A stretch of 20,344 bases of DNA from positions 1 through 20,344 of the forward strand of contig JBGSTX010000073.1 of the NCBI GenBank assembly GCA_041736305.1, in the 5' to 3' direction. The position numbers and the translations under genes were made by a program. This document shows, piece after piece, positions 1 through 18,397 of this stretch (positions are counted from its first letter, which is position 1; every line of letters starts with the position of its first letter). The notes beneath the pieces were generated by a model. The model ran no database searches. It saw only the letters and a list, made by a program, of their open reading frames with translations, and had not been told where the DNA came from. Origin of the DNA: Oligoflexus sp. (lineage in GTDB: Bacteria > Bdellovibrionota_B > Oligoflexia > Oligoflexales > Oligoflexaceae).

Positions 1-1648
1 TGCCAGATTTAACATTACCCACAGCGAGATCAACGTCACCGCTGATAAAATGCCTTGCGCCGGTCGCATCCCAGAATTCCGAGTTGGTCGGGCTCGCGAT
101 GCGCGTGTGAAAGTTAGCTGCGGTGAGTCCCGTCGCGGTACCCGCGATGCTGAGGTCCATCGCTTTATAAGTGATAGTCGTAACGCAATCAGTCGAACCA
201 CCTGCTGAACAATTAGCCAGGGTTCCTGTTGCGCCGTTAACTGTATCAATCGCGCGAACATTAGCTGCACTCGGAAAGTCCGGACTGTAGGATGGACTTA
301 AGGTTGCACCCTGGTCACCATAAGTTCCACTCCCGATTAGAACGTTAGATGCCAAAGGCAAAGTTAGCGTCCCGGTTGAGCCTGAGCCTCCGGCACCATA
401 GGATGTTCCTGTTAAAACTTTAGCTACAGGTGGCAGAGTCAAGGTACCGTTAACTCCGGCCACGGTTTGACTAACTAGAATCTTGCTAGCCAAGCCTGTT
501 GTCAACGCAGCCGCATAAGTTGGACCGACGACAACGCAGCCTGTGGCACCATCGGCCCCGCAGTTGGTGTGAGTTTCAGAAGTTGCCGAACCTGAGATAC
601 CATGAATCACAACACCGCTGACAATATTCGTAGCAGAAAGATCCGCGTCACCTGTTACTTGATGCCGGGCACCTGTTGAGTCCCAGAATTCAAAATTGGC
701 AGCGGTTTTGAGGCTTGTATTGAAGTTAGTGGCATTTAGTCCTGTCGAGCTGTTGGAGCCGAGGGCGCTTAGATCGATCGATTTATAGGCGGTGGTGGTG
801 ACGCAACCAGTAGTGCCAGACGCCGAGCAATCCTGGAGAGTCCCTGCAATTCCTGCGAGCGTTAGAGACGTGCGAATCGCAGCCTTTCCGTTATCGATGT
901 CATCGTAGCTGATAGCTCTGAGGGGTTGAGTTGTAGCAGCATAGGTGCCAACGAAGCAATTCGAGCTATTGGCTGTACATTGTGTGCCCGCGTAGAAGGT
1001 GCCAGTGGCGACGCAGTTTTGAGAGCCGTTGGAACTGCAGTTGGGAGTACCCGAAGCACTTCCGGTGATCCCAAAAACCGAAACGCCAGTTTTGATATTG
1101 GCAACAGAAAGATTGCTGTCGCCGCTTACGCTGTGACGGGTTCCCGACGCATCCCAGAATTCGAAGTTGGTTCCGGAGCTAATTGCTGTATTGAAATTAG
1201 AAGCTGTGAGACCTGTCTCGCTTCCAGAGCCAGTAAGATTCATGGACTTATAGGTGGAGCTTGTTACGCAGCCGCTCTGATTAGCACCAGTACAGTTATT
1301 AAGAGTTCCTGTGGAACCATTTACCGTATCGCTAGAGTGCACATTGGCTAACGCAGGAAAATCGGGAGAATAGGTCGGCGTAATCTGGGCAGCAGAATCT
1401 CCGTAGACCGAAGAACCAACTAGCACACTAGAGGCTGCAGGCAAGGTCAGCGTCCCGCTCAGAGCATTACCACCGGCTCCGTAGAGGGTACCCGTGAGAA
1501 CCTTGCTCACAGTAGGCAGAGTCAGCGATCCGCTGATTCCGGCAATGCTTGAGCCCGAAAGTATTACGGAGGCCGTGACTCCGGACATCTTCGCCGCTTT
1601 GAAAGCTCCCGTGGTGATACACCCCGTCTGCCCATCGCTGCTACAGTC
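1..1648 (-). repeat. Intragenic protein-level repeats arranged B1-A1-linker-A2-B2-A3
   Basis: Module A lies at ~1061-1309, ~590-844 and 1-226 (truncated by the edge). Module B lies at ~1310-1648 and ~227-565 (339 bp each). The B+A unit recurs at an offset of 1083 bp (361 aa). Confidence 0.85.
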
Positions 1649-2668
1649 ACTGTAGAGAGGTTCCGCTACGGCAGCGGTCGCGTTACAGATCCGGGTACCT
1701 TCGAGCAGGTCACCATTAGCATTGTAATATTTTTGCCCTACGCAGACTTCGCTGGCTGGCAAAGTCATAAGAGGAAAATCACTGCTGCTTCCCGCATAAG
1801 CTAAGGCGAAGGAGCGTTCAACTCCGTCCTGGGCGAGAAAGATCGCACCGCTGCCCCGGCGAGGTGCCTCGTCGATGACTACCGTTAGAGCGGTATCACT
1901 CTGGATTTCAAGCTGACTAAGAGGCCGGCCTAGATAGGCTAGCTTGATGCCCGGTCGGAAATTGCTGCCCGTAATGCTTACCTTCTGGCCTTTGTAAGCG
2001 ATCAGGGGACTGATTCCCGCGATAGTCATCGACGGAAGTTCAAGCTGGGCACTCTTGCTCAGAATCTTGGTTTCCTGGGACGCTACCTTGATCTCCTCTT
2101 TCAATTCCACTTTAAGGCGAACGGCCTGATAGTTGCCAAAACCAAGCATCTTGAAGGTGGCCAGTGATTCGGCGACCTTGAAGTTGGCTGGCGGTATAGC
2201 ACCAATTAAAGTCTTACCATCGGCGTCAGTGATTTGATAAATGACGGCAAGAAAAGAACCGTCCAAAGCCAGTGAGCTGGACTCGGAGAGAGGTATGGAA
2301 ATTTCGAGCCGACCGATCTGCGTGAAGTCGACGGCGGCGTTGGCTGAAACATTGATCGAGGGTCCTGCTTGAGTCAGAGAAGTCTCGCCGATATTGAGCG
2401 CTGCAGCTGTCGCCGCATCCGTAATCGGTACGCCTTCCTCGATCTGTAGTTTGCCGCTCAGATCGGAGAACTGTGCTGGTATGGATATCTTAGCTGCTGC
2501 AGATTGATCATTCCTATCTGAGGAAAGGAGCAGCATAGGCTCTAGGGGTGTGCGGTAGTTAGCCGAGCCTGGCTTCTTCTGACAAGACAAAGCTATGAGA
2601 CTAAGGAGGGCCAGAGAGAGGAGCTTCTTTGCAAAAGCTAGGTCCCTTCGGTCTTGCATTTTTAGCAT
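1..2668 (-). CDS. Large surface lipoprotein with IPT/TIG-like domain and Cys-paired, tail-fibre-like internal repeats (partial; 3' end off the left edge)
   Basis: Hand translation of the - strand is open from ATG 2668 (GGAGG 6 nt upstream) to base 2 (889 codons). N-terminus MLKMQDRRDLAFAKKLLSLALLSLIALSC has a lipobox at Cys29. IAGISPLIAYKGQKVSITGSNF resembles an IPT/TIG domain. Ser/Thr/Gly-rich repeats follow: three copies of C-x7-CVT...EFWD..G.RH...GD.(D/N)L...N(I/V)..G and two copies of LTLP.V.KVLTGT.YGAGG...YSPDFP..ANV...DTVNG. Confidence 0.9.
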   Translation of the reverse strand, partial: MLKMQDRRDLAFAKKLLSLALLSLIALSCQKKPGSANYRTPLEPMLLLSSDRNDQSAAAKISIPAQFSDLSGKLQIEEGVPITDAATAAALNIGETSLTQAGPSINVSANAAVDFTQIGRLEISIPLSESSSLALDGSFLAVIYQITDADGKTLIGAIPPANFKVAESLATFKMLGFGNYQAVRLKVELKEEIKVASQETKILSKSAQLELPSMTIAGISPLIAYKGQKVSITGSNFRPGIKLAYLGRPLSQLEIQSDTALTVVIDEAPRRGSGAIFLAQDGVERSFALAYAGSSSDFPLMTLPASEVCVGQKYYNANGDLLEGTRICNATAAVAEPLYSDCSSDGQTGCITTGAFKAAKMSGVTASVILSGSSIAGISGSLTLPTVSKVLTGTLYGAGGNALSGTLTLPAASSVLVGSSVYGDSAAQITPTYSPDFPALANVHSSDTVNGSTGTLNNCTGANQSGCVTSSTYKSMNLTGSGSETGLTASNFNTAISSGTNFEFWDASGTRHSVSGDSNLSVANIKTGVSVFGITGSASGTPNCSSNGSQNCVATGTFYAGTQCTANSSNCFVGTYAATTQPLRAISYDDIDNGKAAIRTSLTLAGIAGTLQDCSASGTTGCVTTTAYKSIDLSALGSNSSTGLNATNFNTSLKTAANFEFWDSTGARHQVTGDADLSATNIVSGVVIHGISGSATSETHTNCGADGATGCVVVGPTYAAALTTGLASKILVSQTVAGVNGTLTLPPVAKVLTGTSYGAGGSGSTGTLTLPLASNVLIGSGTYGDQGATLSPSYSPDFPSAANVRAIDTVNGATGTLANCSAGGSTDCVTTITYKAMDLSIAGTATGLTAANFHTRIASPTNSEFWDATGARHFISGDVDLAVGNVKSG

Positions 2669-6290: not shown

Positions 6291-6692
6291 CAAAATCAAT
6301 CTCCACATTTACATTTACGGCAAGGACTAAGAATACCCTGTTTCGCGACAGTTCGGGTCCCATACTCAAGCTCTGTGCCAGCAAATTACTTGAGTAATAA
6401 TTGATCTTTTTGGGTCTTTACAAGGCTAGCGATGAGTGAAAAGGAAGTGAGTGTCCAAAATTTTAGCACTTTGCCTGAGCCCAAACTATTGAGCCAAGCT
6501 GTCGATCCAGACGATATAGATGTTTCGACGTAAAAACCTCGCAAAAATACGCCGAAAGTATAAAGAGTGCCGCCAGCCACCACTTACAGAAAAACCATTT
6601 TGTAAAAAATAGAAACCAGGATACAGCTTAAAAATCGGCCGTTTTCCTTGCATGAGCGACATTAGGTGGCAGCCATAATATTCGGGGGCAAA

Positions 6693-8555
6693 ATGAGTAT
6701 GGAAATTTTATATGAGCCTAAGGGGCGTCGCAGCTTTTTAAAATCAAGCGGGTCTTTGAGCTTAGGCGCTTGGGCCTTAGCGCAAAACTCCCCACTCTCG
6801 GCAGAAGCTGGCGAAAATCTGTCTTTTAATTACCCCAGCTCTATCCTCAATGCTCTTAGAGAAGAATTAGATATTCCACTCTATACGCTGCAGGGGAAGC
6901 TGCCGACAGATATCGCGGGCCACGCGTTTATCGTATCAGCCTTGCCTCAAGGCGACGGCAGTCCCGTGACAAATGGTGATGGTATGCTTTACCGCTGCGA
7001 CTTCGGCAGTGGTCCAAGCGGTGTCCAACTGAAGACTCGGATCGCCAAAACCCCTTGTTATTATGCCGACCAAGCAACAAAGGGAACTGCACTTGGGTTT
7101 AAGAACTCGGGTATCTTGCGGCGGAGCGATCGCCTTGGAGTTCGTAATCAGGTGAACACAGCTTTCACCTGTATGGGTTCCCGGCTTCTCGTCACTTTCG
7201 ATGGTGGCCGCCCCTATGAAGTCGATACGGAGACTTTGGAACTCGTGACGCCTGTTGGCAAGACCAGTGAGTGGACTACCGTAGTTTCGCCGCCTGCCAG
7301 TAATTTGCTTAAGCTGGTTTTCATGCCGTATCTCTCGGGTGCCCATCCCTTCTACGATGACTATACGGGCGAACTTTTCTTGGCTAACTATCAACCTGCC
7401 GTCCCGCTCTTGCCATCGAAGACCTTTCTCCTCCGTTGGGATGGGGAAGGCGAGCTTGAAAAATTTAAGGTTCAGGTCCAGGGCAAGGACGTAAAGATCG
7501 CGCAGAGCATGCACCAACTGGCGGCAACTAGAGATCACATCATCCTGGTCGATACAGCGTTTCGCATCGAGTTAGAGCAAATCATCTTTACCGAATCGCT
7601 ACAGCGAGAGCTCTGGGATACCACCCTCTACCTTATTCGGCGCGCTGACCTCAAAAAGGGTCAAACGACGGTCGAAGCTCGCAAAGTTCTCATTCCCAGG
7701 GAAATTGCCCACTTCGTGGCTGACTACGACGACAGCTCTGGGCAGATCATTCTGCACCTCACGCATAGCGCCGCCTGGGCAACCTCAGAGTGGCTGCGGA
7801 AAAGCGATAAAGAGGTTCACAGTGGACAGGCCATGCGCAAGGATCTACAGGGGATGCTGGTCATGGCTAGCGATATGACCCCGATGGCTCGCTATGCTCT
7901 CGATGCGGCGACCGGAGAAATCAAGGAGGCCACTCTCCTCTATGATGAACAATTAACTTGGTCGGTAAACCTCTACACCCATCAGGGCAGTACAGTCGAT
8001 CGCTTTGAAAACATGTACTGGACCTCAGTAGGCTTTCACCCCGAGCTCCTGCCCAAGCGCATTTACGATCTCGAAACGTCTTATAAGTACCGCAAAGTAC
8101 CTACTAAGGACTTACCCTTCGCTGAAGCCAAGCCAGCTAGTCTATTTCGAGTCAATGCTCGCCAACTCGATAAGCAGAATCTGGACGCCTATATCTTCCC
8201 CAGAGGTCGCGTGGTCAGTTCTCCGATCTTTGTACCTGCAGCTGGTTCTAAGAGCTCGGACGGCGGTTACGTGGTGGTGAGCGTGGTCTCCGATGACAAG
8301 TCACTTGTTCGCTCCTCAGGCGATGAATTATGGATCTTCGATGCTCGGAGCCTGGCCGATGGACCCGTCTGTCGACTGGGACACCCCCTATTGAGCTTTG
8401 GCTATAGTCTGCATACCGCTTGGCTGCCAGAGGTCCAGGCCCGCACTGCGGGCTATAAAATTTCTCCGCGCGAGGATTATTCCTTAGCCTTGGCCAGTCA
8501 GAGGCGGGATGTGGTCGAGCTGTTTGAGAAGTCAGTGTTTCCCATGTTTGATTGA
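6693..8555 (+). CDS. Carotenoid oxygenase (RPE65/lignostilbene dioxygenase) family protein with twin-arginine signal peptide
   Basis: NGDGM, NTA, GRPYEVD..TLE, and four candidate Fe-ligand His in SGAHP, SMHQLA, IAHF and SLHTAW, plus SSPIFVP. The N-terminus carries GRRSFLK...AEA. Start could be 6666, 6693 or 6699. Confidence 0.85.
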   Translation: MSMEILYEPKGRRSFLKSSGSLSLGAWALAQNSPLSAEAGENLSFNYPSSILNALREELDIPLYTLQGKLPTDIAGHAFIVSALPQGDGSPVTNGDGMLYRCDFGSGPSGVQLKTRIAKTPCYYADQATKGTALGFKNSGILRRSDRLGVRNQVNTAFTCMGSRLLVTFDGGRPYEVDTETLELVTPVGKTSEWTTVVSPPASNLLKLVFMPYLSGAHPFYDDYTGELFLANYQPAVPLLPSKTFLLRWDGEGELEKFKVQVQGKDVKIAQSMHQLAATRDHIILVDTAFRIELEQIIFTESLQRELWDTTLYLIRRADLKKGQTTVEARKVLIPREIAHFVADYDDSSGQIILHLTHSAAWATSEWLRKSDKEVHSGQAMRKDLQGMLVMASDMTPMARYALDAATGEIKEATLLYDEQLTWSVNLYTHQGSTVDRFENMYWTSVGFHPELLPKRIYDLETSYKYRKVPTKDLPFAEAKPASLFRVNARQLDKQNLDAYIFPRGRVVSSPIFVPAAGSKSSDGGYVVVSVVSDDKSLVRSSGDELWIFDARSLADGPVCRLGHPLLSFGYSLHTAWLPEVQARTAGYKISPREDYSLALASQRRDVVELFEKSVFPMFD

Positions 8556-8597: not shown

Positions 8598-9563
8598 ATG
8601 CCGATATCGAGTCGAGCTTCATTTAAAACTGTTTTGGTCTTATTCACAGCCCTTCTCATGCTGGGGGTGCCTACCTCGCTTATAGCCTGGGCGCACGGAG
8701 GACAGAGCAATGCAAGGCTTTCTCCCAGCCCTTATCAGCTATGTCCTAAGCCTCTAGCTAAGCAACCTGCACAAGTCCTTTATAGCTGTGCTGAGCAAGA
8801 GTTCTGGCATGGGCTCTCTGATGGTAGCTTCGAAGTTCGGCAGTCGGTCGAGAAGCATCTCACTAGCATCCTGAGTCTCACGGCTGCTGATAAAGATAGA
8901 GTCAAGCAAGGTCGCATGGCAGGATTGCGAGCCTATCTACGTCTGGCCTTAGCCTTAGAAAATGGTCGTATTGAGCACGTGCTTCTTGGAGGCATGGAGC
9001 GAGATTTTTTAAAAGCAATGGCCAACGATCGGGCAAACACTACATATAAGACGTTCTACGATACAATCATTATCGCCAAATCTGCCATGATGGGCGATTG
9101 GACTAAAGCTGTGAAAGTGAGTGGACCAGCTTTTGATGTTTTGGCAGTGGATCCAATTAATATTCTCTCGCTCTCTGGAACGACGATCGGCTTTCCACTC
9201 AATACCGGGGTGCCCCAGCGCACGATCGCTATGATGGATGCTTGGGTCTGCCCAGCGGAAGAGAAAGATTTTTGTACGCAAAACACTCAGAAAGCGCCGT
9301 TTGCTCGGCCCGGGCTCAGCTTCCATTTCGCAGAAGCTTATGCGCGGGTCGGTGATCGTGCTAAGACCTTGGCCTACCTGCTAGCTGCTCAGGAGGCGCC
9401 TGGATTTGAGAAGTGGCAGCATAAGGAGCTGGTTGAGAAGCCTCTGGCTGATTTGGATAGTTATATGGCTTATTGGGCTAATTTTGGGGAGGATGGGAGC
9501 GCTTTTGATAAGGTCTATGCTAACCAACCCTTTGGTTGTGTTATGTGTCATGGTCGCTGGTAA
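8598..9563 (+). CDS. Secreted helical (TPR-like) protein with a single C-terminal CXXCH haem-c motif
   Basis: Signal peptide ending AWA|HGG, TPR-like segment FHFAEAYARVGDRAKTLAYLLAA, and C-terminus PFGCVMCHGRW. Starts 42 bp after the oxygenase stop on the same strand. Confidence 0.75.
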   Translation: MPISSRASFKTVLVLFTALLMLGVPTSLIAWAHGGQSNARLSPSPYQLCPKPLAKQPAQVLYSCAEQEFWHGLSDGSFEVRQSVEKHLTSILSLTAADKDRVKQGRMAGLRAYLRLALALENGRIEHVLLGGMERDFLKAMANDRANTTYKTFYDTIIIAKSAMMGDWTKAVKVSGPAFDVLAVDPINILSLSGTTIGFPLNTGVPQRTIAMMDAWVCPAEEKDFCTQNTQKAPFARPGLSFHFAEAYARVGDRAKTLAYLLAAQEAPGFEKWQHKELVEKPLADLDSYMAYWANFGEDGSAFDKVYANQPFGCVMCHGRW

Positions 9564-9620: not shown

Positions 9621-9658
9621 GTTTCGCTAAATAACTTCTTAGCGAAGCATTTGATTTC
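9621..9658 (+). terminator. Probable intrinsic terminator after the CXXCH gene
   Basis: Stem gtttcgctaa (9621-9630) / ttagcgaagc (9639-9648) with an 8-nt loop, followed by atttgattt. Confidence 0.5.
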
Positions 9659-9790
9659 GTTGCATTGTAAATATATCGCTAACACATTGACCCCATTGAG
9701 TAATTACGAAGCTCTAAATTTTTCTCACAGAATGACGATGAATCAACTAGCGCGGATTTTCGCATATGCCTAGCAGATAGGAAGAATCAA

Positions 9791-11272
9791 ATGGATCGTC
9801 GTCTTTTCTTAAAGTTTGGATCTTTAGCCGCCGGTACCTACGCCCTCGCTGCTTGTGCTGAAACTCCAGTAAACGACAGGCGACAATTTGGGCCGGCTTC
9901 AGGTGCCAATGTGGAAGGCGAAACACCCGATGATTCCTCGAAAAATCCGGGAGCAACGGCGCTGGCGGGAGAAGTGGTCTATACGCGTGCCGCTCCCGGC
10001 CCTTGGGCTGGGAAAGAAGCAGCCCATCTGCCTAAGCTCACTGTCGTTGACAAAAGGCTGCTCCTAAAAACGGAACATGCGATGACTCCCGAACACTTTA
10101 TCTCGCGTCATCAGCTACGTGATGCCAAAGGCATCATACTCTACGACAGAATTCTAGCCCCTGACGCGGTACCTGAGAGCAAGTTTACCCTCCCCTTACC
10201 TGCTGGACAGACGGTTTCAGCAATGTCGCTTTGCAATTTGCATGGTATGTGGAAAGAGGATTTTCCCATCGCTGATCTCAAGGCAGGTTTTCTAGTGAAT
10301 CCTGTTTATACCCAAGAAAACCCTGGACCTTGGACAGGTAAGGAAGCGGGCCACTTGCCAGCTCTCAAAACAGCGAGAACCCTCGTCAATGGACGCATAA
10401 GCCTGGAAGTCGTGACTAGCCATCCCATGACCCCTGAGCATTATATCTACTCCCATCAGGTTAGAAACTTTCAGGGTGAGACTCTCGCTAAGTCTTATCT
10501 CTCACCTGAAACTGATAAGACCGCCGTAAGCATCATGGAAATCCCGGCGCCGCAGTCTGGTATTGAACTGCTATCCTGCTGCAATCTCCATGGTATTTGG
10601 ATGACGTCGGTTGCCTTTGACGCGCTTTCACCAGTTTATACTGCAGCGGCGCCTGGTCCGGTCGGTGCTCCCGCAGCTCACATACCAACTATAGCCCTGA
10701 CGGATACAAGTGCCGTTGGCGCGCCCAGCCACACGGTTACGGTTACGAATGCGCACGAAATGATTGATGGGACTCACTTCGTTTTTAAGCATCAGGCTCG
10801 CACCGCCGGTGGTGATCTCATCGCTGAACGTTTGCTGAATCCTGCCACTGCAACTACTGCAGTTTCGACTTTCGAAGGCCGGCTCTTCCAAGGCGGTGTC
10901 GGCAAATTTATGATGTACGCCTACTGCAACCTGCATGGGATTTGGAAAGATGAGTTCAACTTCGAACAAATCAATATCCTTTACACCGATACCCCAGGAC
11001 TCGCAGGTGGCGCAGCCGCGACTCATAGACCAATCGTAACTGTCGAGGGCGATAAGATTACTGTGAAGACGGAGCACGCGATGACCGTTGAACACTATAT
11101 TTCCAAGCACCAGATTCGTGCTCTAGATGGTAGCTTAATCGGTGAGAAGAATTTCGCACCTACCGCTGCAGCACCGCTGAGCGTCTATCCAAAAGGCGCC
11201 CTAGCAGGTAATTTTATGGCCTATTCCTATTGTAACTTACACGGTATCTGGAAATCGCCTTTTACTGTCTAA
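9791..11272 (+). CDS. Tat-exported lipoprotein with four tandem desulfoferrodoxin/neelaredoxin (superoxide reductase-like) Fe-binding domains
   Basis: MDRRLFLK twin-arginine motif, lipobox LAAC (Cys22), and four copies of HxP...HxMx(3-4)H(F/Y)(I/V)...CNLHGxW. Confidence 0.88.
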   Translation: MDRRLFLKFGSLAAGTYALAACAETPVNDRRQFGPASGANVEGETPDDSSKNPGATALAGEVVYTRAAPGPWAGKEAAHLPKLTVVDKRLLLKTEHAMTPEHFISRHQLRDAKGIILYDRILAPDAVPESKFTLPLPAGQTVSAMSLCNLHGMWKEDFPIADLKAGFLVNPVYTQENPGPWTGKEAGHLPALKTARTLVNGRISLEVVTSHPMTPEHYIYSHQVRNFQGETLAKSYLSPETDKTAVSIMEIPAPQSGIELLSCCNLHGIWMTSVAFDALSPVYTAAAPGPVGAPAAHIPTIALTDTSAVGAPSHTVTVTNAHEMIDGTHFVFKHQARTAGGDLIAERLLNPATATTAVSTFEGRLFQGGVGKFMMYAYCNLHGIWKDEFNFEQINILYTDTPGLAGGAAATHRPIVTVEGDKITVKTEHAMTVEHYISKHQIRALDGSLIGEKNFAPTAAAPLSVYPKGALAGNFMAYSYCNLHGIWKSPFTV

Positions 11273-11324: not shown

Positions 11325-11403
11325 CCTCGTTCATTTTTCCTTGCATCCCACTAAGCACTTGCCTAACCTTCGGCCTGAAACCTCTTGGGTCCAGGGAGTG
11401 TCC

Positions 11404-12549
11404 GTGCACGTCAAAATTCTCTCATCTGTGGAAGCTATTGGACGACCGAGCTGGGAAGCGCTCCGAAGCCCCGATTATCCCTTCCATCACTATGCATTCC
11501 TGCAGGCACTGGAAAAAACCGGCAGCGTCGGCCCTGAGAGCGGATGGCAGTTGGCCTATCTGGTCCTCGAAGATGCCGAGGGCGTGCGTGCCGTGCATCC
11601 GAGCTATGTAAAAGCCCATAGCTACGGCGAATACATCTTTGATTGGGAATGGGCCAGGTTCTACAGCCAAAACCAGAGAGCATACTATCCCAAGCTCTTG
11701 AGCGCCACTCCCTTCACTCCGGCTACAGGCACCCGCCTGCTGCTTAGAGCTGATGCGGAAACGTCCGATAAAGAGCTGCTTATTGCCACTGCTCTTCAGA
11801 CCGCCCGGAACTCAAATATGAGCTCCTATCACGCGCTCTTTCTCGAGGAAGATGAAGCCAAGCTCTATCAAGAACAAGGCTGCATGATCCGCCACTCGCT
11901 CCAGTATCACTGGCGAAACGGGGGTTATCGAGATTTTAATGACTATCTCGAAGGCTTCGTCGGCAAGAGACGACGCGATATTGTTCGCGAACGAAAGCGG
12001 GCTCAGAGTCAAGGGCTCGATATCAGGCATTTAAGTGGAGCAGAATTGAGCGAAGCGCTAGCCGAGCGGATGGAAGAGCTCTACCTCGCGACGATAGATA
12101 AAAAGGAGTCCTTCGCCTACCTCCAGCCCGGATTCTTCAAGGAAATCTTTGCCAGCATGGGCGACAGTGTTCTGCTGGTAGGAGCCTTCGCCGGCGAGAC
12201 GATGGTAGCGGCGGCGCTCAATTTCTTCCAAGGCGAGAAGCTCTATGGCCGCTACTGGGGGGCGCAGGAGCACTATCCGGACCTACACTTCGAACTCTGC
12301 TATTACCAGACTCTGGATTTCGCAATCGCTAGAAAAATCAAAATTTTCGAAGCCGGTGCGCAGGGGGAGCATAAGATTCAGCGTGGCTTCCTGCCGAAGA
12401 TTATTCTGAGCGCCCACGAGATCTTCGATCCACGCTTCCGGCCTGCGATTGCAGCTTATGTCGAAGCCGAGAAGCAAAAGCTCAGCGAAGCTATCGACTC
12501 GCTCGGGGGTCTCAACCCATTTCGCGAGACTCCCGCGCTCAATAATTAG
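11404..12549 (+). CDS. GNAT-family N-acetyltransferase, FemAB-like (DUF482 type)
   Basis: HSYGEYIFDWEWA, YYPKL..ATPFTPATG, LYGRYWG, LHFELCYYQ and EAGAQGEHKIQRGF are diagnostic. GTG 11404 follows GGGAG. Confidence 0.9.
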   Translation: MHVKILSSVEAIGRPSWEALRSPDYPFHHYAFLQALEKTGSVGPESGWQLAYLVLEDAEGVRAVHPSYVKAHSYGEYIFDWEWARFYSQNQRAYYPKLLSATPFTPATGTRLLLRADAETSDKELLIATALQTARNSNMSSYHALFLEEDEAKLYQEQGCMIRHSLQYHWRNGGYRDFNDYLEGFVGKRRRDIVRERKRAQSQGLDIRHLSGAELSEALAERMEELYLATIDKKESFAYLQPGFFKEIFASMGDSVLLVGAFAGETMVAAALNFFQGEKLYGRYWGAQEHYPDLHFELCYYQTLDFAIARKIKIFEAGAQGEHKIQRGFLPKIILSAHEIFDPRFRPAIAAYVEAEKQKLSEAIDSLGGLNPFRETPALNN

Positions 12550-13349
12550 TAGGCGAAAGTATCGTAGGATTCGCGCCGGGGCTGAAAACTCACTTTTTCG
12601 CTAATAGGATTAAAGCGCAAGAGCTGCTTAGCCCGTGCCGAAAGCTCCTCAAAAGCACGCTGCGAGATGTCGATCGAAACCTCAGGCCGAAACATCCAGC
12701 TGCGACTATAGCCGATGACGACCATCGGTCGCGCCACGTGGCTGCGATTAGGCGTTCCCCTGTGGAGACCTCTGACATCTCGAATCATGACGTCGCCTAG
12801 TTCCATGGTGATAGGCTCTAGCCTGGTCTCGCCACTTTCCAGGCGACGCATGGCTTCGGATTTGGGAATCATATGGGTGCCCCGTGCGATCTCAATAGGC
12901 CCATTTTCGAGCGTGATGTCGACCAGAGGAAAATTGATGGCTAACTGAAAAGGAGGCGTCTCTTCACCAGTCTCTGGAAAAAGAGGCGGCGCATCTCTAT
13001 GGGTTTCTTGGTAGTCAGATCCCAATAAGGGAGTGTCCGTCGCTAGCTGGCACATAATAAAATTCTCTCCGACCAGACCCTTGCAAATGGCCAGAATATC
13101 GTCGTTTTCAAATACTTCAGGGTCAGCAAAAGGCCGAAGAAAAGGCAGGGTTACATAGTAGCGGCAAGCACCTCGCTTGAGATCACTCCCACCATCCGCA
13201 AGGTACTCCTCGAGCAGAGGAGTAAAGGCTTCGTTCCACGCTTCGAGCTTTTGGCGTGGGAAAGCCTGTTTAATCACGCAAAAACCATCCTTCAGTACTT
13301 CGCTGGTGTAAAAAGCGATTTGCTCCGCACTCATAAGCTTCGATCCCAT
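12546..13349 (-). CDS. Phytanoyl-CoA dioxygenase (PhyH) family Fe(II)/2-oxoglutarate oxygenase
   Basis: DGFCVI, HRD (HxD), DITLENGP..IARGTH, GDVMIRD..GLHRGTPNRS..ARP. Start is uncertain (13334, 13349 or 13364). The stop overlaps the GNAT stop by 4 bp (TTAG). Confidence 0.88.
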   Translation of the reverse strand: MGSKLMSAEQIAFYTSEVLKDGFCVIKQAFPRQKLEAWNEAFTPLLEEYLADGGSDLKRGACRYYVTLPFLRPFADPEVFENDDILAICKGLVGENFIMCQLATDTPLLGSDYQETHRDAPPLFPETGEETPPFQLAINFPLVDITLENGPIEIARGTHMIPKSEAMRRLESGETRLEPITMELGDVMIRDVRGLHRGTPNRSHVARPMVVIGYSRSWMFRPEVSIDISQRAFEELSARAKQLLRFNPISEKVSFQPRRESYDTFAY

Positions 13350-13514
13350 GCCAGCCCCATTCAATTTGGTCGGTTAAATCGGGTTTTTACCCACAAAATC
13401 ATATTTATCCGGAAGACCGCTACAAGTAAATAAGCTTAACAGCGTCAAGATATTCGTGAATTTATAGAGATAACTGAGTCGAAGCCGCGGATGCCGCACA
13501 GAGCCTTGAGTTGA

Positions 13515-15112: not shown

Positions 15113-15976
15113 CTAGTCCATGCCCGGGCACTGCCCATCGCGGCGGAAAGTCGTATGATTGTGGATATTGTAATCATAAACGCGAACTTCCTGCGTCACG
15201 TATTTAGGATGTGGAACCCAGCAGTAAGCATTTTCGCCGTTCGAAAAGAATATCCCCCCGTCACCTAGAACTGCAAAAAAACCCAGTTCGATTCGGTAGC
15301 GACAGCCACCATGGAAGGCAAACCAACTCGTCTTGAGAATGTCCATATCATAGCGCCGGACAGTATCGGCTATGAGGCTAGGAGCCGGCACATGGCAGTA
15401 AGCATTATCACCATTTGACCAGTACACCGCGGGTTCATCTCTTATCCTAAAGAAACCCAGTTCAATCTTTTCAAAATACTTCAAGACTTCGCTCCGTTCA
15501 GCCTGTAGCGATTGACGTCGGTCGTCCAGTTCTTGCCTGCACTTTTCGATAGCAGCGAGATCAACAACGGCCGGAAACAGATCAATAGCAACCGTTCCTA
15601 CTACTATAGGACGCTGAGGAGCGATGGTGCTTAGACAGACCGGTGGTCGAGGTATAAGACCGAGGATAATTTCGAACATTTTATCTTCTTGGCTCTGCAC
15701 TATTGTGATCTGTTCGGGACTCTCATCCATGCAAGATCTTGGCAGAAATGCTCCAAGATTCAAATACTGACAGACTGCTCTGGGGCTACAATCAATCTGA
15801 CTGCAGTCAATGCGATTTAGCAGTTGTTCTAGATTATTGCGATAGTAGTGGGGTCCAGCTTTGGCAAGGTTTGCGGCCGCTCCATTTAGCCATGCAACCT
15901 GCACTGGGTTCAGTGCCATTGCCGTGTCTAACCAAAGGCCTGTGACCAGAAGCAGAAGATGCATGAGTCTTGGCAT
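15113..15976 (-). CDS. Secreted Cys-rich protein with a central coiled coil and two C-terminal ~58-aa repeats
   Basis: Signal peptide ending TAMA|LNP and GGAG upstream. Repeat consensus IELGFF...SNG(D/E)NAYC.VP.P......VR.YD..I...F...G.C occurs twice. Confidence 0.8.
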   Translation of the reverse strand: MPRLMHLLLLVTGLWLDTAMALNPVQVAWLNGAAANLAKAGPHYYRNNLEQLLNRIDCSQIDCSPRAVCQYLNLGAFLPRSCMDESPEQITIVQSQEDKMFEIILGLIPRPPVCLSTIAPQRPIVVGTVAIDLFPAVVDLAAIEKCRQELDDRRQSLQAERSEVLKYFEKIELGFFRIRDEPAVYWSNGDNAYCHVPAPSLIADTVRRYDMDILKTSWFAFHGGCRYRIELGFFAVLGDGGIFFSNGENAYCWVPHPKYVTQEVRVYDYNIHNHTTFRRDGQCPGMD

Positions 15977-17902: not shown

Positions 17903-18397
17903 ATGGAACAGTCTATAAGACAAACATCCGTAAAAGGCTGGGGCGTTGACCTCGATGCTGCACAGAGACCAGCAGTCCCGATGGAACACACGCCGCCTGG
18001 TGGTACAGGAGCTCACTGGGAGCAGCCAGAGCCGCAGTTTTCCGGCATCCGCGTCTTCCAGTCGATAGAACGGCCGGCGATGACTCACGTCTACGGGACT
18101 TCTGCGCCCCCGCGTGGAATCAGCGGCAGGATGCGCGCTTATGCTTATGAGTTCGGGGAGGCTCGTCTGGCTCGCTGGATGACCTTGCTCGCTGCTGATC
18201 GGGTGGATGTAATCGAAGGGCTCGTCGACGATTTGCAGCGCGGTAAGATCCCAAATATTTTTGCCGAAATGGGCTTGGGCGCCGAGTGGAAGTACAATAA
18301 GAAAGCCCTGGTCCGCCGTGCCCTCGTCGGTGCGAGTGCGGTGGCGGCGGGAGCTTTTATTGTTAGTTCAGCGCGTAAAATAGCGAGAATTATCTGA
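17903..18397 (+). CDS. Hypothetical protein with C-terminal hydrophobic anchor, co-transcribed with the Zn dehydrogenase
   Basis: Starts 12 bp after the dehydrogenase stop with an AAGGA RBS. Contains GWGVD..RPAVPME, GTSAPPRGISG and WMTLLAADRVDVIEG. Confidence 0.8.
   Translation: MEQSIRQTSVKGWGVDLDAAQRPAVPMEHTPPGGTGAHWEQPEPQFSGIRVFQSIERPAMTHVYGTSAPPRGISGRMRAYAYEFGEARLARWMTLLAADRVDVIEGLVDDLQRGKIPNIFAEMGLGAEWKYNKKALVRRALVGASAVAAGAFIVSSARKIARII

What the first reader, a model, noticed from the sequence alone, without database searches (positions are those of the whole stretch)
9791..11272. Single-chain, four-domain superoxide-reductase-like lipoprotein exported by Tat
Seen: a twin-arginine lipoprotein signal (RRLFLK...LAAC) followed by four complete His4Cys ligand sets: H79/H96/H102/C148/H151, H188/H211/H217/C264/H267, H297/H322/H329/C379/H382 and H412/H429/H435/C481/H484. 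Known: 1Fe-SORs (neelaredoxins) are ~125-aa single-domain proteins, typically cytoplasmic homotetramers of anaerobes, and single-domain Tat-SORs have been described. Inference: this gene fuses a tetramer's worth of domains into one membrane-anchored extracytoplasmic chain. Its neighbours include O2-dependent dioxygenases, so the host probably meets oxygen. It could act as an envelope superoxide sink or a multi-metal storage/relay protein. I do not know of a described four-domain form.
Basis: partly seen in the sequence, partly recalled or inferred. Interest (0 to 1): 0.85.

Follow-up and report, generated by a model that had tools for sequence, protein, structure and literature searches.

The report
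Four-domain Tat-exported superoxide-reductase-like lipoprotein
This gene encodes a lipid-anchored, exported protein made of four superoxide-reductase-type iron-binding domains in one chain, a rare and uncharacterised variant of a known antioxidant enzyme found in an oxygen-respiring bacterium.

Summary
ORF 9791-11272 (+) encodes 493 aa with a twin-arginine motif (RRLFLK), a lipobox (LAAC22), a disordered tether of about 40 residues and four Desulfoferrodox domains (Pfam E 4.4e-37, 4 stretches). The predicted domains match solved superoxide reductases (SORs) (Z 12.5-13.5). In 11 full-length relatives, 19 of 20 ligand columns are invariant.

It belongs to a small family: 15 hits in 5.8 billion clusters and 3 of 95 genomes of its order, with two paralogs in each of two genomes. 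Each domain position forms its own clade, so the four-domain form arose once. A complex model packs the D1-D2 half against the D3-D4 half (0.72, best control 0.00).

- **Catalytic motif:** the canonical Glu-Lys-His motif is missing. D1 and D2 carry Lys at -4, as single-domain Tat-SORs do; D3 and D4 have none.
- **Neighbours:** no neighbouring gene is conserved, so the dioxygenases nearby say nothing about function.
- **Host:** it is an aerobe with its own Fe/Mn and Cu/Zn superoxide dismutases.
- **Architecture:** tandem SOR arrays of 2 to 6 domains exist elsewhere, unstudied.

The most likely role is an envelope superoxide reductase. Activity, metal content and electron donor are untested. I rate it a new variant of a known kind, of moderate interest.

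The parts
9621..9648 (+). Terminator-like stem-loop between the upstream gene (ends 9563) and this gene. It suggests a separate transcription unit.
   Evidence: Consensus match only: 3 sites were found against 1.9 +/- 1.3 in shuffles, so this is weak.
9779..9784 (+). Shine-Dalgarno-like AGGAAG, 6 nt before the ATG
   Evidence: Sequence printed
9791..9856 (+). Signal peptide, residues 1-22: twin-arginine motif RRLFLK (residues 3-8, nt 9797-9814) and lipobox L-A-A-C (residues 19-22, nt 9845-9856). Cys22 is the predicted lipidated N-terminus of the mature protein.
   Evidence: sequence. M1 is invariant, and D2, R3, R4, F6, F9, G10, G15 and C22 are at least 90% conserved. TatC and LspA are present in the genome.
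9857..9970 (+). Disordered tether, residues 23-60. Its length and composition vary among relatives.
   Evidence: pLDDT below 50 for residues 1-60; the alignment is gapped and unconserved here.
9971..10270 (+). SOR-like domain D1 (about residues 61-160). Ligands H79, H96, H102, C148, H151. Motif GKEAAH with Lys75 at -4.
10292..10615 (+). SOR-like domain D2 (about residues 168-275). Ligands H188, H211, H217, C264, H267. Motif GKEAGH with Lys184 at -4. In the complex model it contacts D3 and D4.
   Evidence: (6gq8, Z 12.5 over 171-276)
10631..10960 (+). SOR-like domain D3 (about residues 281-390). Ligands H297, H322, H329, C379, H382. There is one extra residue between the second and third His (H-x6-H) and no Lys before the first His.
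10973..11269 (+). SOR-like domain D4 (about residues 395-493). Ligands H412, H429, H435, C481, H484. No Lys before the first His. H412 is Glu in 5 of 11 family members.
   Evidence: (1dfx Z 13.5, 4d7p Z 12.5)
11270..11272 (+). Stop codon

Best explanation
The gene encodes an iron metalloprotein that most likely folds and takes up its metal in the cytoplasm. It is exported folded by the Tat pathway, lipidated at Cys22, and held to a membrane of the cell envelope by a disordered tether of about 40 residues. The mature part is four superoxide-reductase-type beta-sandwich domains of the 'TAT-SOR' class. Each has a His4Cys site, and the domains pack into one compact body.

The most likely function is reduction of superoxide to hydrogen peroxide in the periplasm or at the envelope. 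Electrons would come from an unidentified periplasmic carrier, such as a c-type cytochrome. The peroxide would be removed by the genome's cytochrome c peroxidase homologues.

The four sites are not equivalent. D1 and D2 carry the Lys at -4 that is typical of single-domain Tat-SORs and are the likeliest catalytic sites. D3 and D4 lack it and may be slower sites, electron-entry sites or structural sites.

Shown here: the ORF, the signals, four domains, the fold, ligand conservation, and family distribution. Supported only by models: the compact packing. Inferred: iron binding, Tat and lipoprotein processing, SOR chemistry, the donor, and the division of labour between domains.
For: Domains and fold:
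- Four PF01880 / TIGR00332 domains score over their cut-offs.
- The ligands align with those of solved SORs.
- AlphaFold2 gives pLDDT 84 for the whole protein and 89.7 for residues 61-493.
- The four top structural matches out of 48,161 chains are all SORs: Z 12.5-13.5, rmsd 1.7-2.2 A, 85-96 residues aligned. The next tier is at Z 8.9.

Conservation:
- 19 of 20 ligand columns are invariant in 11 full-length members that are only about 50% identical. The second-sphere C-N-x-H-G-x-W motif is kept in all four domains.
- Each domain position is its own starred clade across 11 full-length proteins (the D1 clade also holds the single-domain P0018, and the D2 clade also holds P0016_D1): 97/93, 99/95, 100/98, 98/95. 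The architecture is old and has been maintained.

Export:
- The Tat motif and lipobox Cys are at least 90% conserved.
- TatC, LspA, five CCP_MauG matches and three haem-copper oxidase subunit I matches are present in the genome.
- Single-domain Tat-signal relatives share the [GK]-K-x-x-x-H-x-P and H-Y-I-x-R-H motifs (read by eye).

Packing:
- The half-against-half complex model gives a median ipSAE of 0.72 against a best control of 0.00. That mark was reached by 58 of 80 solved complexes and 2 of 110 mismatched pairs. The runs share at least 88% of contacts and partner pLDDT is at least 92. My own alignment was used, so those counts hold only roughly.

Literature:
- SORGOdb defines TAT-SOR as active site II plus a twin-arginine signal (PMC3116461, passages).
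- A TAT-1Fe-SOR is reported as highly transcribed in an aerobic Sulfurimonas and given a putative periplasmic scavenging role (PMC10066037, passages).
Against: - No activity, metal content or localisation has been measured for this protein. In the papers I could search, none has been measured for any TAT-SOR either.
- The Glu-Lys pair next to the first His of canonical SORs is absent from all four domains. D3 and D4 have no Lys nearby in 0 of 11 members.
- The first His of D4 is Glu in 5 of 11 members.
- No electron-donor gene, and indeed no gene at all, is conserved next to the four full-length loci compared.
- The host already has one Fe/Mn SOD and two Cu/Zn SOD homologues, so the need for an envelope SOR is not obvious.
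- The gene is patchy: 3 of 95 genomes of the order and 0 of 13 other genomes of the same genus (completeness 72-97%).
- pTM is only 0.58-0.62, so the overall domain arrangement is not firmly predicted.
- SOR dimers and tetramers are solved structures, so the complex pass may reflect likeness to them.
Confidence: 0.55

Rival explanations
1. The four His4Cys iron sites are used for redox chemistry other than superoxide reduction. Examples are an extracytoplasmic electron-transfer protein, an Fe(II)-dependent oxidase or peroxidase, or a sensor of oxidants. The SOR scaffold would have been re-purposed in an aerobe.
For: - The canonical Glu-Lys motif is absent from all four domains.
- The domain positions are non-equivalent and each is conserved in its own way: K(-4) in D1 10/11, D2 7/11, D3 0/11, D4 0/11; His to Glu in D4 in 5/11; H-x6-H spacing in D3.
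- The host is an aerobe with its own SODs.
- A fifth His per domain (I-x-[KR]-H-Q) replaces the position that reads Trp in the solved SORs aligned (HYIAW, HHIAW, HWIEW).
Against: - The full SOR first- and second-sphere signature (H..H-x5-H..C-N-x-H-G-x-W) is what is most conserved.
- The nearest structures are all SORs.
- The K(-4) and extra-His motifs are shared with ordinary single-domain Tat-signal SOR homologues, so they are class features and not specific to this protein.
- A natural SOR lacking the Glu ligand is reported as active (title of Rodrigues et al. 2008, seen in the reference list of PMC3116461). One lacking the Lys is also active (recalled, not seen in any call).
Confidence: 0.2
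2. It is a metal buffer, store or chaperone. The four sites would bind and hand on Fe(II) or another metal in the envelope.
For: There are four metal sites per chain, an extracytoplasmic location, and no partner genes.
Against: - Tat export implies that the metal is loaded before export and kept (established knowledge of Tat substrates, not tested here).
- His4Cys sites buried in a rigid SOR fold are not typical of labile transfer sites (inference).
- No metal transporter is conserved next to any copy.
Confidence: 0.1
3. It is a non-metal structural array of Ig-like domains, such as an adhesin or spacer, that merely descends from SOR.
For: A whole-chain Foldseek search returns only strings of Ig/FN3-like domains such as complement C3 and adhesins, at TM about 0.2. 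One distant four-domain relative (P0016) has Tyr in place of the Cys ligand in its second domain.
Against: 19 of 20 ligand columns are invariant at about 50% overall identity. The Foldseek hits have rmsd around 20 A and only reflect the presence of many beta-sandwiches.
Confidence: 0.03
4. It is a SoxY/SoxZ-like sulfur-carrier relative from a sulfidic hot-spring organism.
For: SoxZ and SoxY are the next structural tier (2ox5_Z Z 8.9, 2oxg_Y 8.2, 2nnc 7.9). Some Atlas clusters carry both PF01880 and SoxY/SoxZ labels (scores 0.76, leads only). The best DNA holder is labelled a hot springs metagenome.
Against: SORs score 3.6 to 4.6 Z units higher. Pfam reports only Desulfoferrodox. The His4Cys sets are intact. 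The protein ends ...WKSPFTV, without the Gly-Gly-Cys-Gly-Gly carrier end of SoxY (that motif is recalled, not taken from a call).
Confidence: 0.02

Closest known systems
TAT-SOR class of SORGOdb (single-domain 1Fe-SOR with a twin-arginine signal, e.g. the Geobacter and Desulfuromonas proteins named in PMC3116461)
   Same: Both have a twin-arginine signal plus SOR active site II. They share the class motifs [GK]-K-x-x-x-H-x-P and H-Y-I-x-R-H. The nearest single-domain sequences in the domain tree carry Tat signals.
   Different: This protein has four domains in one chain instead of one. It also has a lipobox Cys and a disordered tether. D3 and D4 lack the Lys, and the host is an aerobe. No TAT-SOR characterisation was found in my searches.
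1Fe-SOR / neelaredoxin (P. furiosus 1DO6, P. horikoshii 2HVB, N. equitans 6GQ8, Giardia 4D7P)
   Same: Same fold (Z 12.5), same His4Cys ligands and same C-N-x-H-G-x-W motif. The number of domains equals the subunits of the homotetramer (that the enzyme is a tetramer is recalled).
   Different: The canonical enzyme is a cytoplasmic homo-oligomer of about 125-aa chains with an E-K-H-x-P motif. Here there are four diverged domains (36-46% pairwise identity) that are covalently linked, exported and lipid-anchored, and the motif is G-K-E-x-x-H or has no Lys at all.
2Fe-SOR / desulfoferrodoxin (1DFX) and T. pallidum SOR (1Y07)
   Same: These are the best structural and sequence matches to single domains (Z 13.5 and 12.8, E 7e-8).
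   Different: There is no desulforedoxin (FeCys4) domain here. TIGR00320 scores 79.7, below its cut-off of 146.9.
Other tandem Desulfoferrodox proteins in sequence collections (uncharacterised): Tat-lipoprotein forms with 2-4 domains (P0011-P0017) and eukaryote-looking membrane proteins with 2-6 domains, some with DOMON (P0019, P0020, P0052, P0120, P0162)
   Same: They share tandem SOR-type domains on a chain that is exported or membrane-anchored.
   Different: They are independent duplications. The eukaryote-looking ones keep a K-H motif next to the first His and end in a transmembrane stretch (read by eye). None is described in the papers I could search.

Membership tests
Superoxide reductase centre-II domain (Pfam PF01880 / TIGR00332) | Profile score over the curated cut-off | tested here: met
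   PF01880: 127 bits against 22.2, 4 stretches. TIGR00332: 91.8 bits against 61.9, 4 stretches.
Superoxide reductase centre-II domain (Pfam PF01880 / TIGR00332) | SOR-type seven-stranded beta-sandwich fold | tested here: met
   the top four of 48,161 chains are SORs (Z 12.5-13.5). They cover D2 (171-276) and D4 (about 366/408-493). D1 and D3 were not matched separately in that list. Their pLDDT is similar.
Superoxide reductase centre-II domain (Pfam PF01880 / TIGR00332) | Four His plus one Cys iron ligands in the order H ... H-x5-H ... C-x2-H | tested here: met
   All four sets are present in the window protein and align to ligands of 1y07 and 2hvb. 19 of 20 columns are invariant in 11 members. 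D3 has H-x6-H. H412 is Glu in 5 of 11 relatives.
Superoxide reductase (functional enzyme) | Glu-Lys directly before the first His ligand (E-K-H-x-P) | tested here: not met
   The alignment to 1y07 puts Ala-Ala opposite Glu-Lys. The motifs are GKEAAH, GKEAGH, GAPAAH and GAAATH. Lys is at -4 in D1 and D2 only.
Superoxide reductase (functional enzyme) | Binds Fe and reduces superoxide to H2O2 | not testable with these tools
   This needs purified protein.
Superoxide reductase (functional enzyme) | Electron donor encoded nearby (rubredoxin, etc.) | tested here: not met
   No ORF of at least 100 aa is shared between the flanks of the window, the paralog contig, L008 and L009 at blastp E 1e-8. Pfam scans of the flanks show unrelated genes. 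Many true SORs also lack such neighbours (PMC3116461, passage).
TAT-SOR class (SORGOdb) | Active site II plus an N-terminal twin-arginine signal | tested here: met
   RRLFLK at residues 3-8, conserved in the family. TatC is present in the genome. No TatP/TatFind program was available, so the motif was read by eye.
TAT-SOR class (SORGOdb) | Single SOR module without further domains | tested here: not met
   Four modules.
2Fe-SOR / desulfoferrodoxin (TIGR00320 equivalog) | Score over the equivalog cut-off, and an N-terminal desulforedoxin FeCys4 domain | tested here: not met
   79.7 bits against a cut-off of 146.9. The only Cys residues are C22, C148, C263, C264, C379 and C481.
Bacterial lipoprotein | Lipobox [LVI][ASTVI][GAS]C at the end of the signal peptide, and signal peptidase II in the genome | tested here: met
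   L-A-A-C22. C22 is at least 90% conserved. Peptidase_A8 match at E 5.3e-30. The lipobox consensus is recalled. Lipidation itself is not testable here.
SoxY/SoxZ sulfur carrier | Closest fold and profile match, and a C-terminal carrier Cys motif | tested here: not met
   Z 8.9, 8.2 and 7.9, against 12.5-13.5 for SORs. No SoxY/SoxZ Pfam hit at E up to 10. The C-terminus is ...WKSPFTV. The carrier motif is recalled.

The most novel reading that the evidence does not exclude
The chain is a self-contained, hetero-functional redox machine and not four copies of one enzyme. The four positionally conserved iron sites would divide the work. Two Lys-bearing sites (D1, D2) would do the superoxide chemistry. 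Two Lys-less sites (D3, D4, the latter switching its first His for Glu in about half of the family) would accept electrons from a periplasmic carrier or perform a second reaction. This would give an aerobe an extracytoplasmic, lipid-anchored device for handling reactive oxygen. It would be convergent with the membrane-anchored multi-SOR / DOMON proteins seen in eukaryote-like sequences.
Probability: 0.2. Interest if true: 0.7.

Novelty: new variant of a known kind. Interest (0 to 1): 0.5.

Why it matters
SORs are textbook cytoplasmic enzymes of anaerobes, built as homo-oligomers of small subunits. Here the oligomer appears to have been written into one exported, lipid-anchored chain in an oxygen-respiring bacterium. 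Each domain position has then evolved on its own.

If the protein is active, it would show three things:
- Superoxide reduction is used outside the cytoplasm by aerobes, alongside SODs.
- Covalent fusion lets the sites specialise.
- The still uncharacterised TAT-SOR class has a tractable multi-site member for spectroscopy.

The finding also points to a wider, unstudied set of tandem SOR-domain proteins in bacteria and eukaryote-like sequences.

Tried and rejected
- **Gene context.** Flanks of the window, the paralog contig C326, L008 and L009 share no ORF. Pfam scans of those flanks gave unrelated functions. Context was dropped as evidence.
- **Whole-chain Foldseek against PDB.** It returned only multi-Ig strings at TM about 0.2 and rmsd about 20 A, which is uninformative. 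VIA-align wide gave the SOR matches instead.
- **Comparison with the P. furiosus tetramer.** This was not possible. Model coordinates are not delivered to the script box and the libraries hold single chains.
- **Expression.** No RNA holder is listed among 6 runs.
- **ESM Atlas.** The best score was 0.89, below the tool's 0.9 mark, and no structure search was possible. I used it only as a lead to the SoxY/SoxZ rival.
- **NCBIfam on the unexplained neighbours.** Nothing was found for 8598-9563, 2-2668, 15113-15976 or 17903-18397.
- **Literature.** Searches for tandem, multidomain, periplasmic or lipoprotein SORs, for SOR+DOMON and for SOR in Oligoflexia found no description of a multi-domain SOR. 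The library lacks most subscription journals. The Chem. Rev. 2014 SOD/SOR review was not held. Supplements are closed, including the SORGOdb TAT-SOR alignment figure.
- **Antisense ORF 10628-11110 (-).** I reject it as a gene. Its only matches are the antisense strands of the homologous genes.
- **Assembly artefact.** I considered repeat mis-assembly as the source of four domains and rejected it. The domains are only 36-46% identical, and the same architecture recurs in independent assemblies.
Full report
**1. The observation**

The ORF at 9791-11272 (+) is real and 493 aa long. An AGGAAG hexamer lies 6 nt before its ATG. It also shows the twin-arginine motif RRLFLK (residues 3-8) and the lipobox LAAC (19-22).

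Pfam finds four Desulfoferrodox stretches (E 4.4e-37, 127 bits against a cut-off of 22.2). NCBIfam finds four ferrous-iron-binding-domain stretches (TIGR00332, 91.8 against 61.9). The 2Fe-SOR equivalog TIGR00320 stays under its cut-off (79.7 against 146.9).

HMMER alignments to solved SORs put the D1 and D2 residues on the known ligands. These include T. pallidum 1y07 (E 7e-8), 2hvb and 1dfx.

**2. Structure**

AlphaFold2 on a 17-row alignment gives mean pLDDT 84 and pTM 0.58, with residues 1-60 below 50. The mature part alone (61-493, 13 rows) gives pLDDT 89.7 and pTM 0.62.

Whole-chain Foldseek was uninformative and returned only strings of Ig-like domains at TM about 0.2. VIA-align against 48,161 representative chains gave four SORs as the four best matches:

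| Chain | Z | rmsd (A) | Residues aligned |
|---|---|---|---|
| 1dfx | 13.5 | 2.0 | 89 |
| 1y07 | 12.8 | 2.2 | 92 |
| 4d7p | 12.5 | 1.7 | 85 |
| 6gq8 | 12.5 | 2.0 | 96 |

These matches cover D4 and D2. The next tier is SoxZ at Z 8.9.

I gave the two halves (61-280 and 281-493) to the complex predictor as separate chains:
- The median ipSAE was 0.72 and the best of 3 controls was 0.00.
- That mark was reached by 58 of 80 solved complexes and 2 of 110 mismatched pairs.
- The runs share at least 88% of contacts and partner pLDDT is at least 92.
- My own alignment was used, so the calibration counts hold only roughly.

D2 (residues 200-255) touches both D3 (338-370) and D4 (422-467). This supports, but does not show, a compact body rather than beads on a string. 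SOR oligomers are solved structures, so the pass may come from likeness to them. I could not superpose the model on the P. furiosus tetramer because coordinates are not delivered.

**3. The family**

The word-indexed search of 5.8 billion clusters returned 15 proteins, including the window's own:
- Ten are other full-length forms (450-522 aa, 36-52% identity, 91-100% coverage).
- Four are shorter (316-398 aa).
- The names given by sources are 'desulfoferrodoxin family protein [Oligoflexales bacterium]' and 'superoxide reductase'.

The exhaustive HMMER search of 1.84 billion representatives found 327 proteins at E up to 0.001, 66 at up to 1e-10 and 5 at up to 1e-30.

The window's genome is 5.02 Mb in 392 contigs and 92.7% complete. 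It holds a second full-length copy on contig C326 at 48.6% identity. These two genes contain all the PF01880 matches in the genome (7 matches).

In genome contigs, 2 of 43 confirmed loci are full-length, and both lie in one Oligoflexales MAG. Across the order, 3 of 95 species genomes have a match: G000, G057 with two copies, and G013 with a three-domain form. None of the 13 other genomes of the same genus has one (completeness 72-97%). It is therefore a rare accessory gene.

**4. Domain evolution**

I built a maximum-likelihood tree of 82 domain sequences, cut from 18 multi-domain proteins and 15 single-domain hits. D1, D2, D3 and D4 of the window protein, its paralog and P0002-P0010 each form a well-supported clade (97/93, 99/95, 100/98, 98/95). 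The D1 clade also holds the single-domain P0018, and the D2 clade also holds P0016_D1. D3 and D4 are sisters (95/84).

The other multi-domain proteins duplicated independently: P0011/12/13, P0014/15, P0016 and P0017. They also carry RR motifs and a lipobox Cys.

Within the window protein the domains are 36-46% identical. The four-domain form therefore arose once and has been kept, with each position diverging.

**5. Active-site reading**

I aligned 11 full-length members: the window protein, its paralog and P0002-P0010. P0011 and the shorter forms were left out.

- 19 of 20 ligand columns are invariant.
- The exception is H412, which is His in 6 and Glu in 5.
- The C-N-x-H-G-x-W motif is kept in all four domains.

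The Glu-Lys pair that precedes the first His in the solved enzymes is absent; Ala-Ala aligns to it. Instead, Lys sits at -4:

| Domain | Members with Lys at -4 |
|---|---|
| D1 | 10 of 11 |
| D2 | 7 of 11 |
| D3 | 0 of 11 |
| D4 | 0 of 11 |

The paralog's D1 reads D-K-H. D3 has one extra residue between its second and third His.

The Lys(-4) motif and a fifth His (H-Y-I-x-[KR]-H) recur in the single-domain Tat-signal relatives I printed (read by eye). They are therefore features of the TAT-SOR class.

Natural SORs lacking the Glu are reported as active (title of Rodrigues et al. 2008, seen in a reference list). One lacking the Lys is also active, but that is recalled and comes from no call. 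The missing motif therefore lowers the odds of SOR chemistry without excluding it.

**6. Context and host**

The neighbours are:
- an RPE65-type oxygenase (6666-8555);
- an unknown secreted protein (8598-9563);
- a FemAB_like protein (11341-12549);
- a PhyH dioxygenase (12546-13364, minus strand).

None recurs beside the paralog or the two MAG copies. A terminator-like hairpin at 9621-9648 lies upstream of the gene, but such sites are no more frequent there than in shuffled sequence.

The genome has:
- three haem-copper oxidase subunit I matches;
- TatC;
- one Fe/Mn-SOD match and two Cu/Zn-SOD matches;
- five CCP_MauG matches;
- LspA.

The host is therefore an aerobe with the export and lipidation machinery, with peroxide-removing enzymes, and with SODs of its own. 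The best DNA holder among public runs is labelled a hot springs metagenome and may be the source sample.

**7. Mechanism**

The most likely sequence of events is:
1. The protein folds and takes up iron in the cytoplasm.
2. It is exported by Tat and lipidated at Cys22.
3. A flexible tether holds a compact four-site body in the envelope.
4. The body reduces superoxide to peroxide with electrons from an unidentified periplasmic carrier.

D1 and D2 are the likeliest catalytic sites. All steps after the sequence features are inferred.

The rivals, in order of likelihood, are:
- other redox chemistry on the same sites;
- metal buffering;
- a metal-free structural array;
- a SoxY/Z-like carrier.

**8. 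Comparison and novelty**

SORGOdb (PMC3116461, passages read) defines TAT-SOR as active site II plus a twin-arginine signal. It predicted seven such proteins. The passages I read mention no tandem SOR modules.

A Sulfurimonas study (PMC10066037, passages) reports a highly transcribed TAT-1Fe-SOR with a putative periplasmic role.

Nine literature searches found no description of a multi-domain SOR. Subscription journals and supplements were out of reach.

Tandem forms are nevertheless present in sequence collections. I scanned 20 of the 150 listed representatives, chosen for length or several stretches. All 20 carry PF01880, with 1 to 6 stretches, and five also show DOMON (four with a matched stretch; for P0042 only a whole-protein E of 0.00035). 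Several look like eukaryotic membrane proteins.

My verdict is a new variant of a known kind, rare and uncharacterised, of moderate interest.

Noticed in passing
window 8598-9563 (+): A 321-aa protein with an N-terminal hydrophobic signal-like stretch and no Pfam or NCBIfam match. It ends in ...GCVMCHGRW, a CxxCH motif four residues from the C-terminus. It starts 43 nt after the RPE65-type oxygenase gene (6666-8555) and may form an operon with it.
   Followed up: partly
G000 contig C326:75-1553 (-) = L051: A second full-length four-domain paralog, 48.6% identical. Its D1 reads D-K-H (canonical-like) and its D4 has Glu in place of the first His. It is closer to P0003/P0005 than to the window copy in the domain tree.
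   Followed up: partly
P0019, P0020, P0052, P0082, P0120, P0127, P0133, P0162: These are long, eukaryote-looking proteins with 2-6 Desulfoferrodox domains and a C-terminal hydrophobic stretch. Some also have DOMON domains and a multi-pass membrane region. They may be extracellular SOR arrays fed by a transmembrane electron route. P0073 (6147 aa) shows 22 matched stretches in the phmmer table. I found no paper with 'desulfoferrodoxin' and 'DOMON'.
   Followed up: partly
P0016 (509 aa): This is an independent four-domain Tat-lipoprotein lineage. In its second domain Tyr replaces the Cys ligand (..SEYNLHEVW), so that site is probably degenerate.
   Followed up: no
L008 9595-10887 and 10913-12019 (+): Two adjacent genes with ADP-ribosyltransferase exoenzyme-like domains (PF03496, E 3.4e-8 and 6.7e-11) lie directly downstream of the homologue in the Oligoflexales MAG. 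They are not present next to the window gene.
   Followed up: no
window 2-2668 (-), 15113-15976 (-), 17903-18397 (+): Three sizeable ORFs (889 aa open-ended, 287 aa and 164 aa) have no Pfam or NCBIfam match.
   Followed up: partly
window 10628-11110 (-): A 160-aa antisense ORF lies inside the gene. Its only matches are the antisense strands of homologous genes, so it is a shadow of the conserved sense frame.
   Followed up: yes
ESM Atlas clusters: Clusters named SoxY/SoxZ family carry PF01880 on 79-100% of their members. This suggests profile overlap or real fusions between SOR-like and SoxY/Z-like domains. The two folds are also neighbours in the structural search.
   Followed up: no
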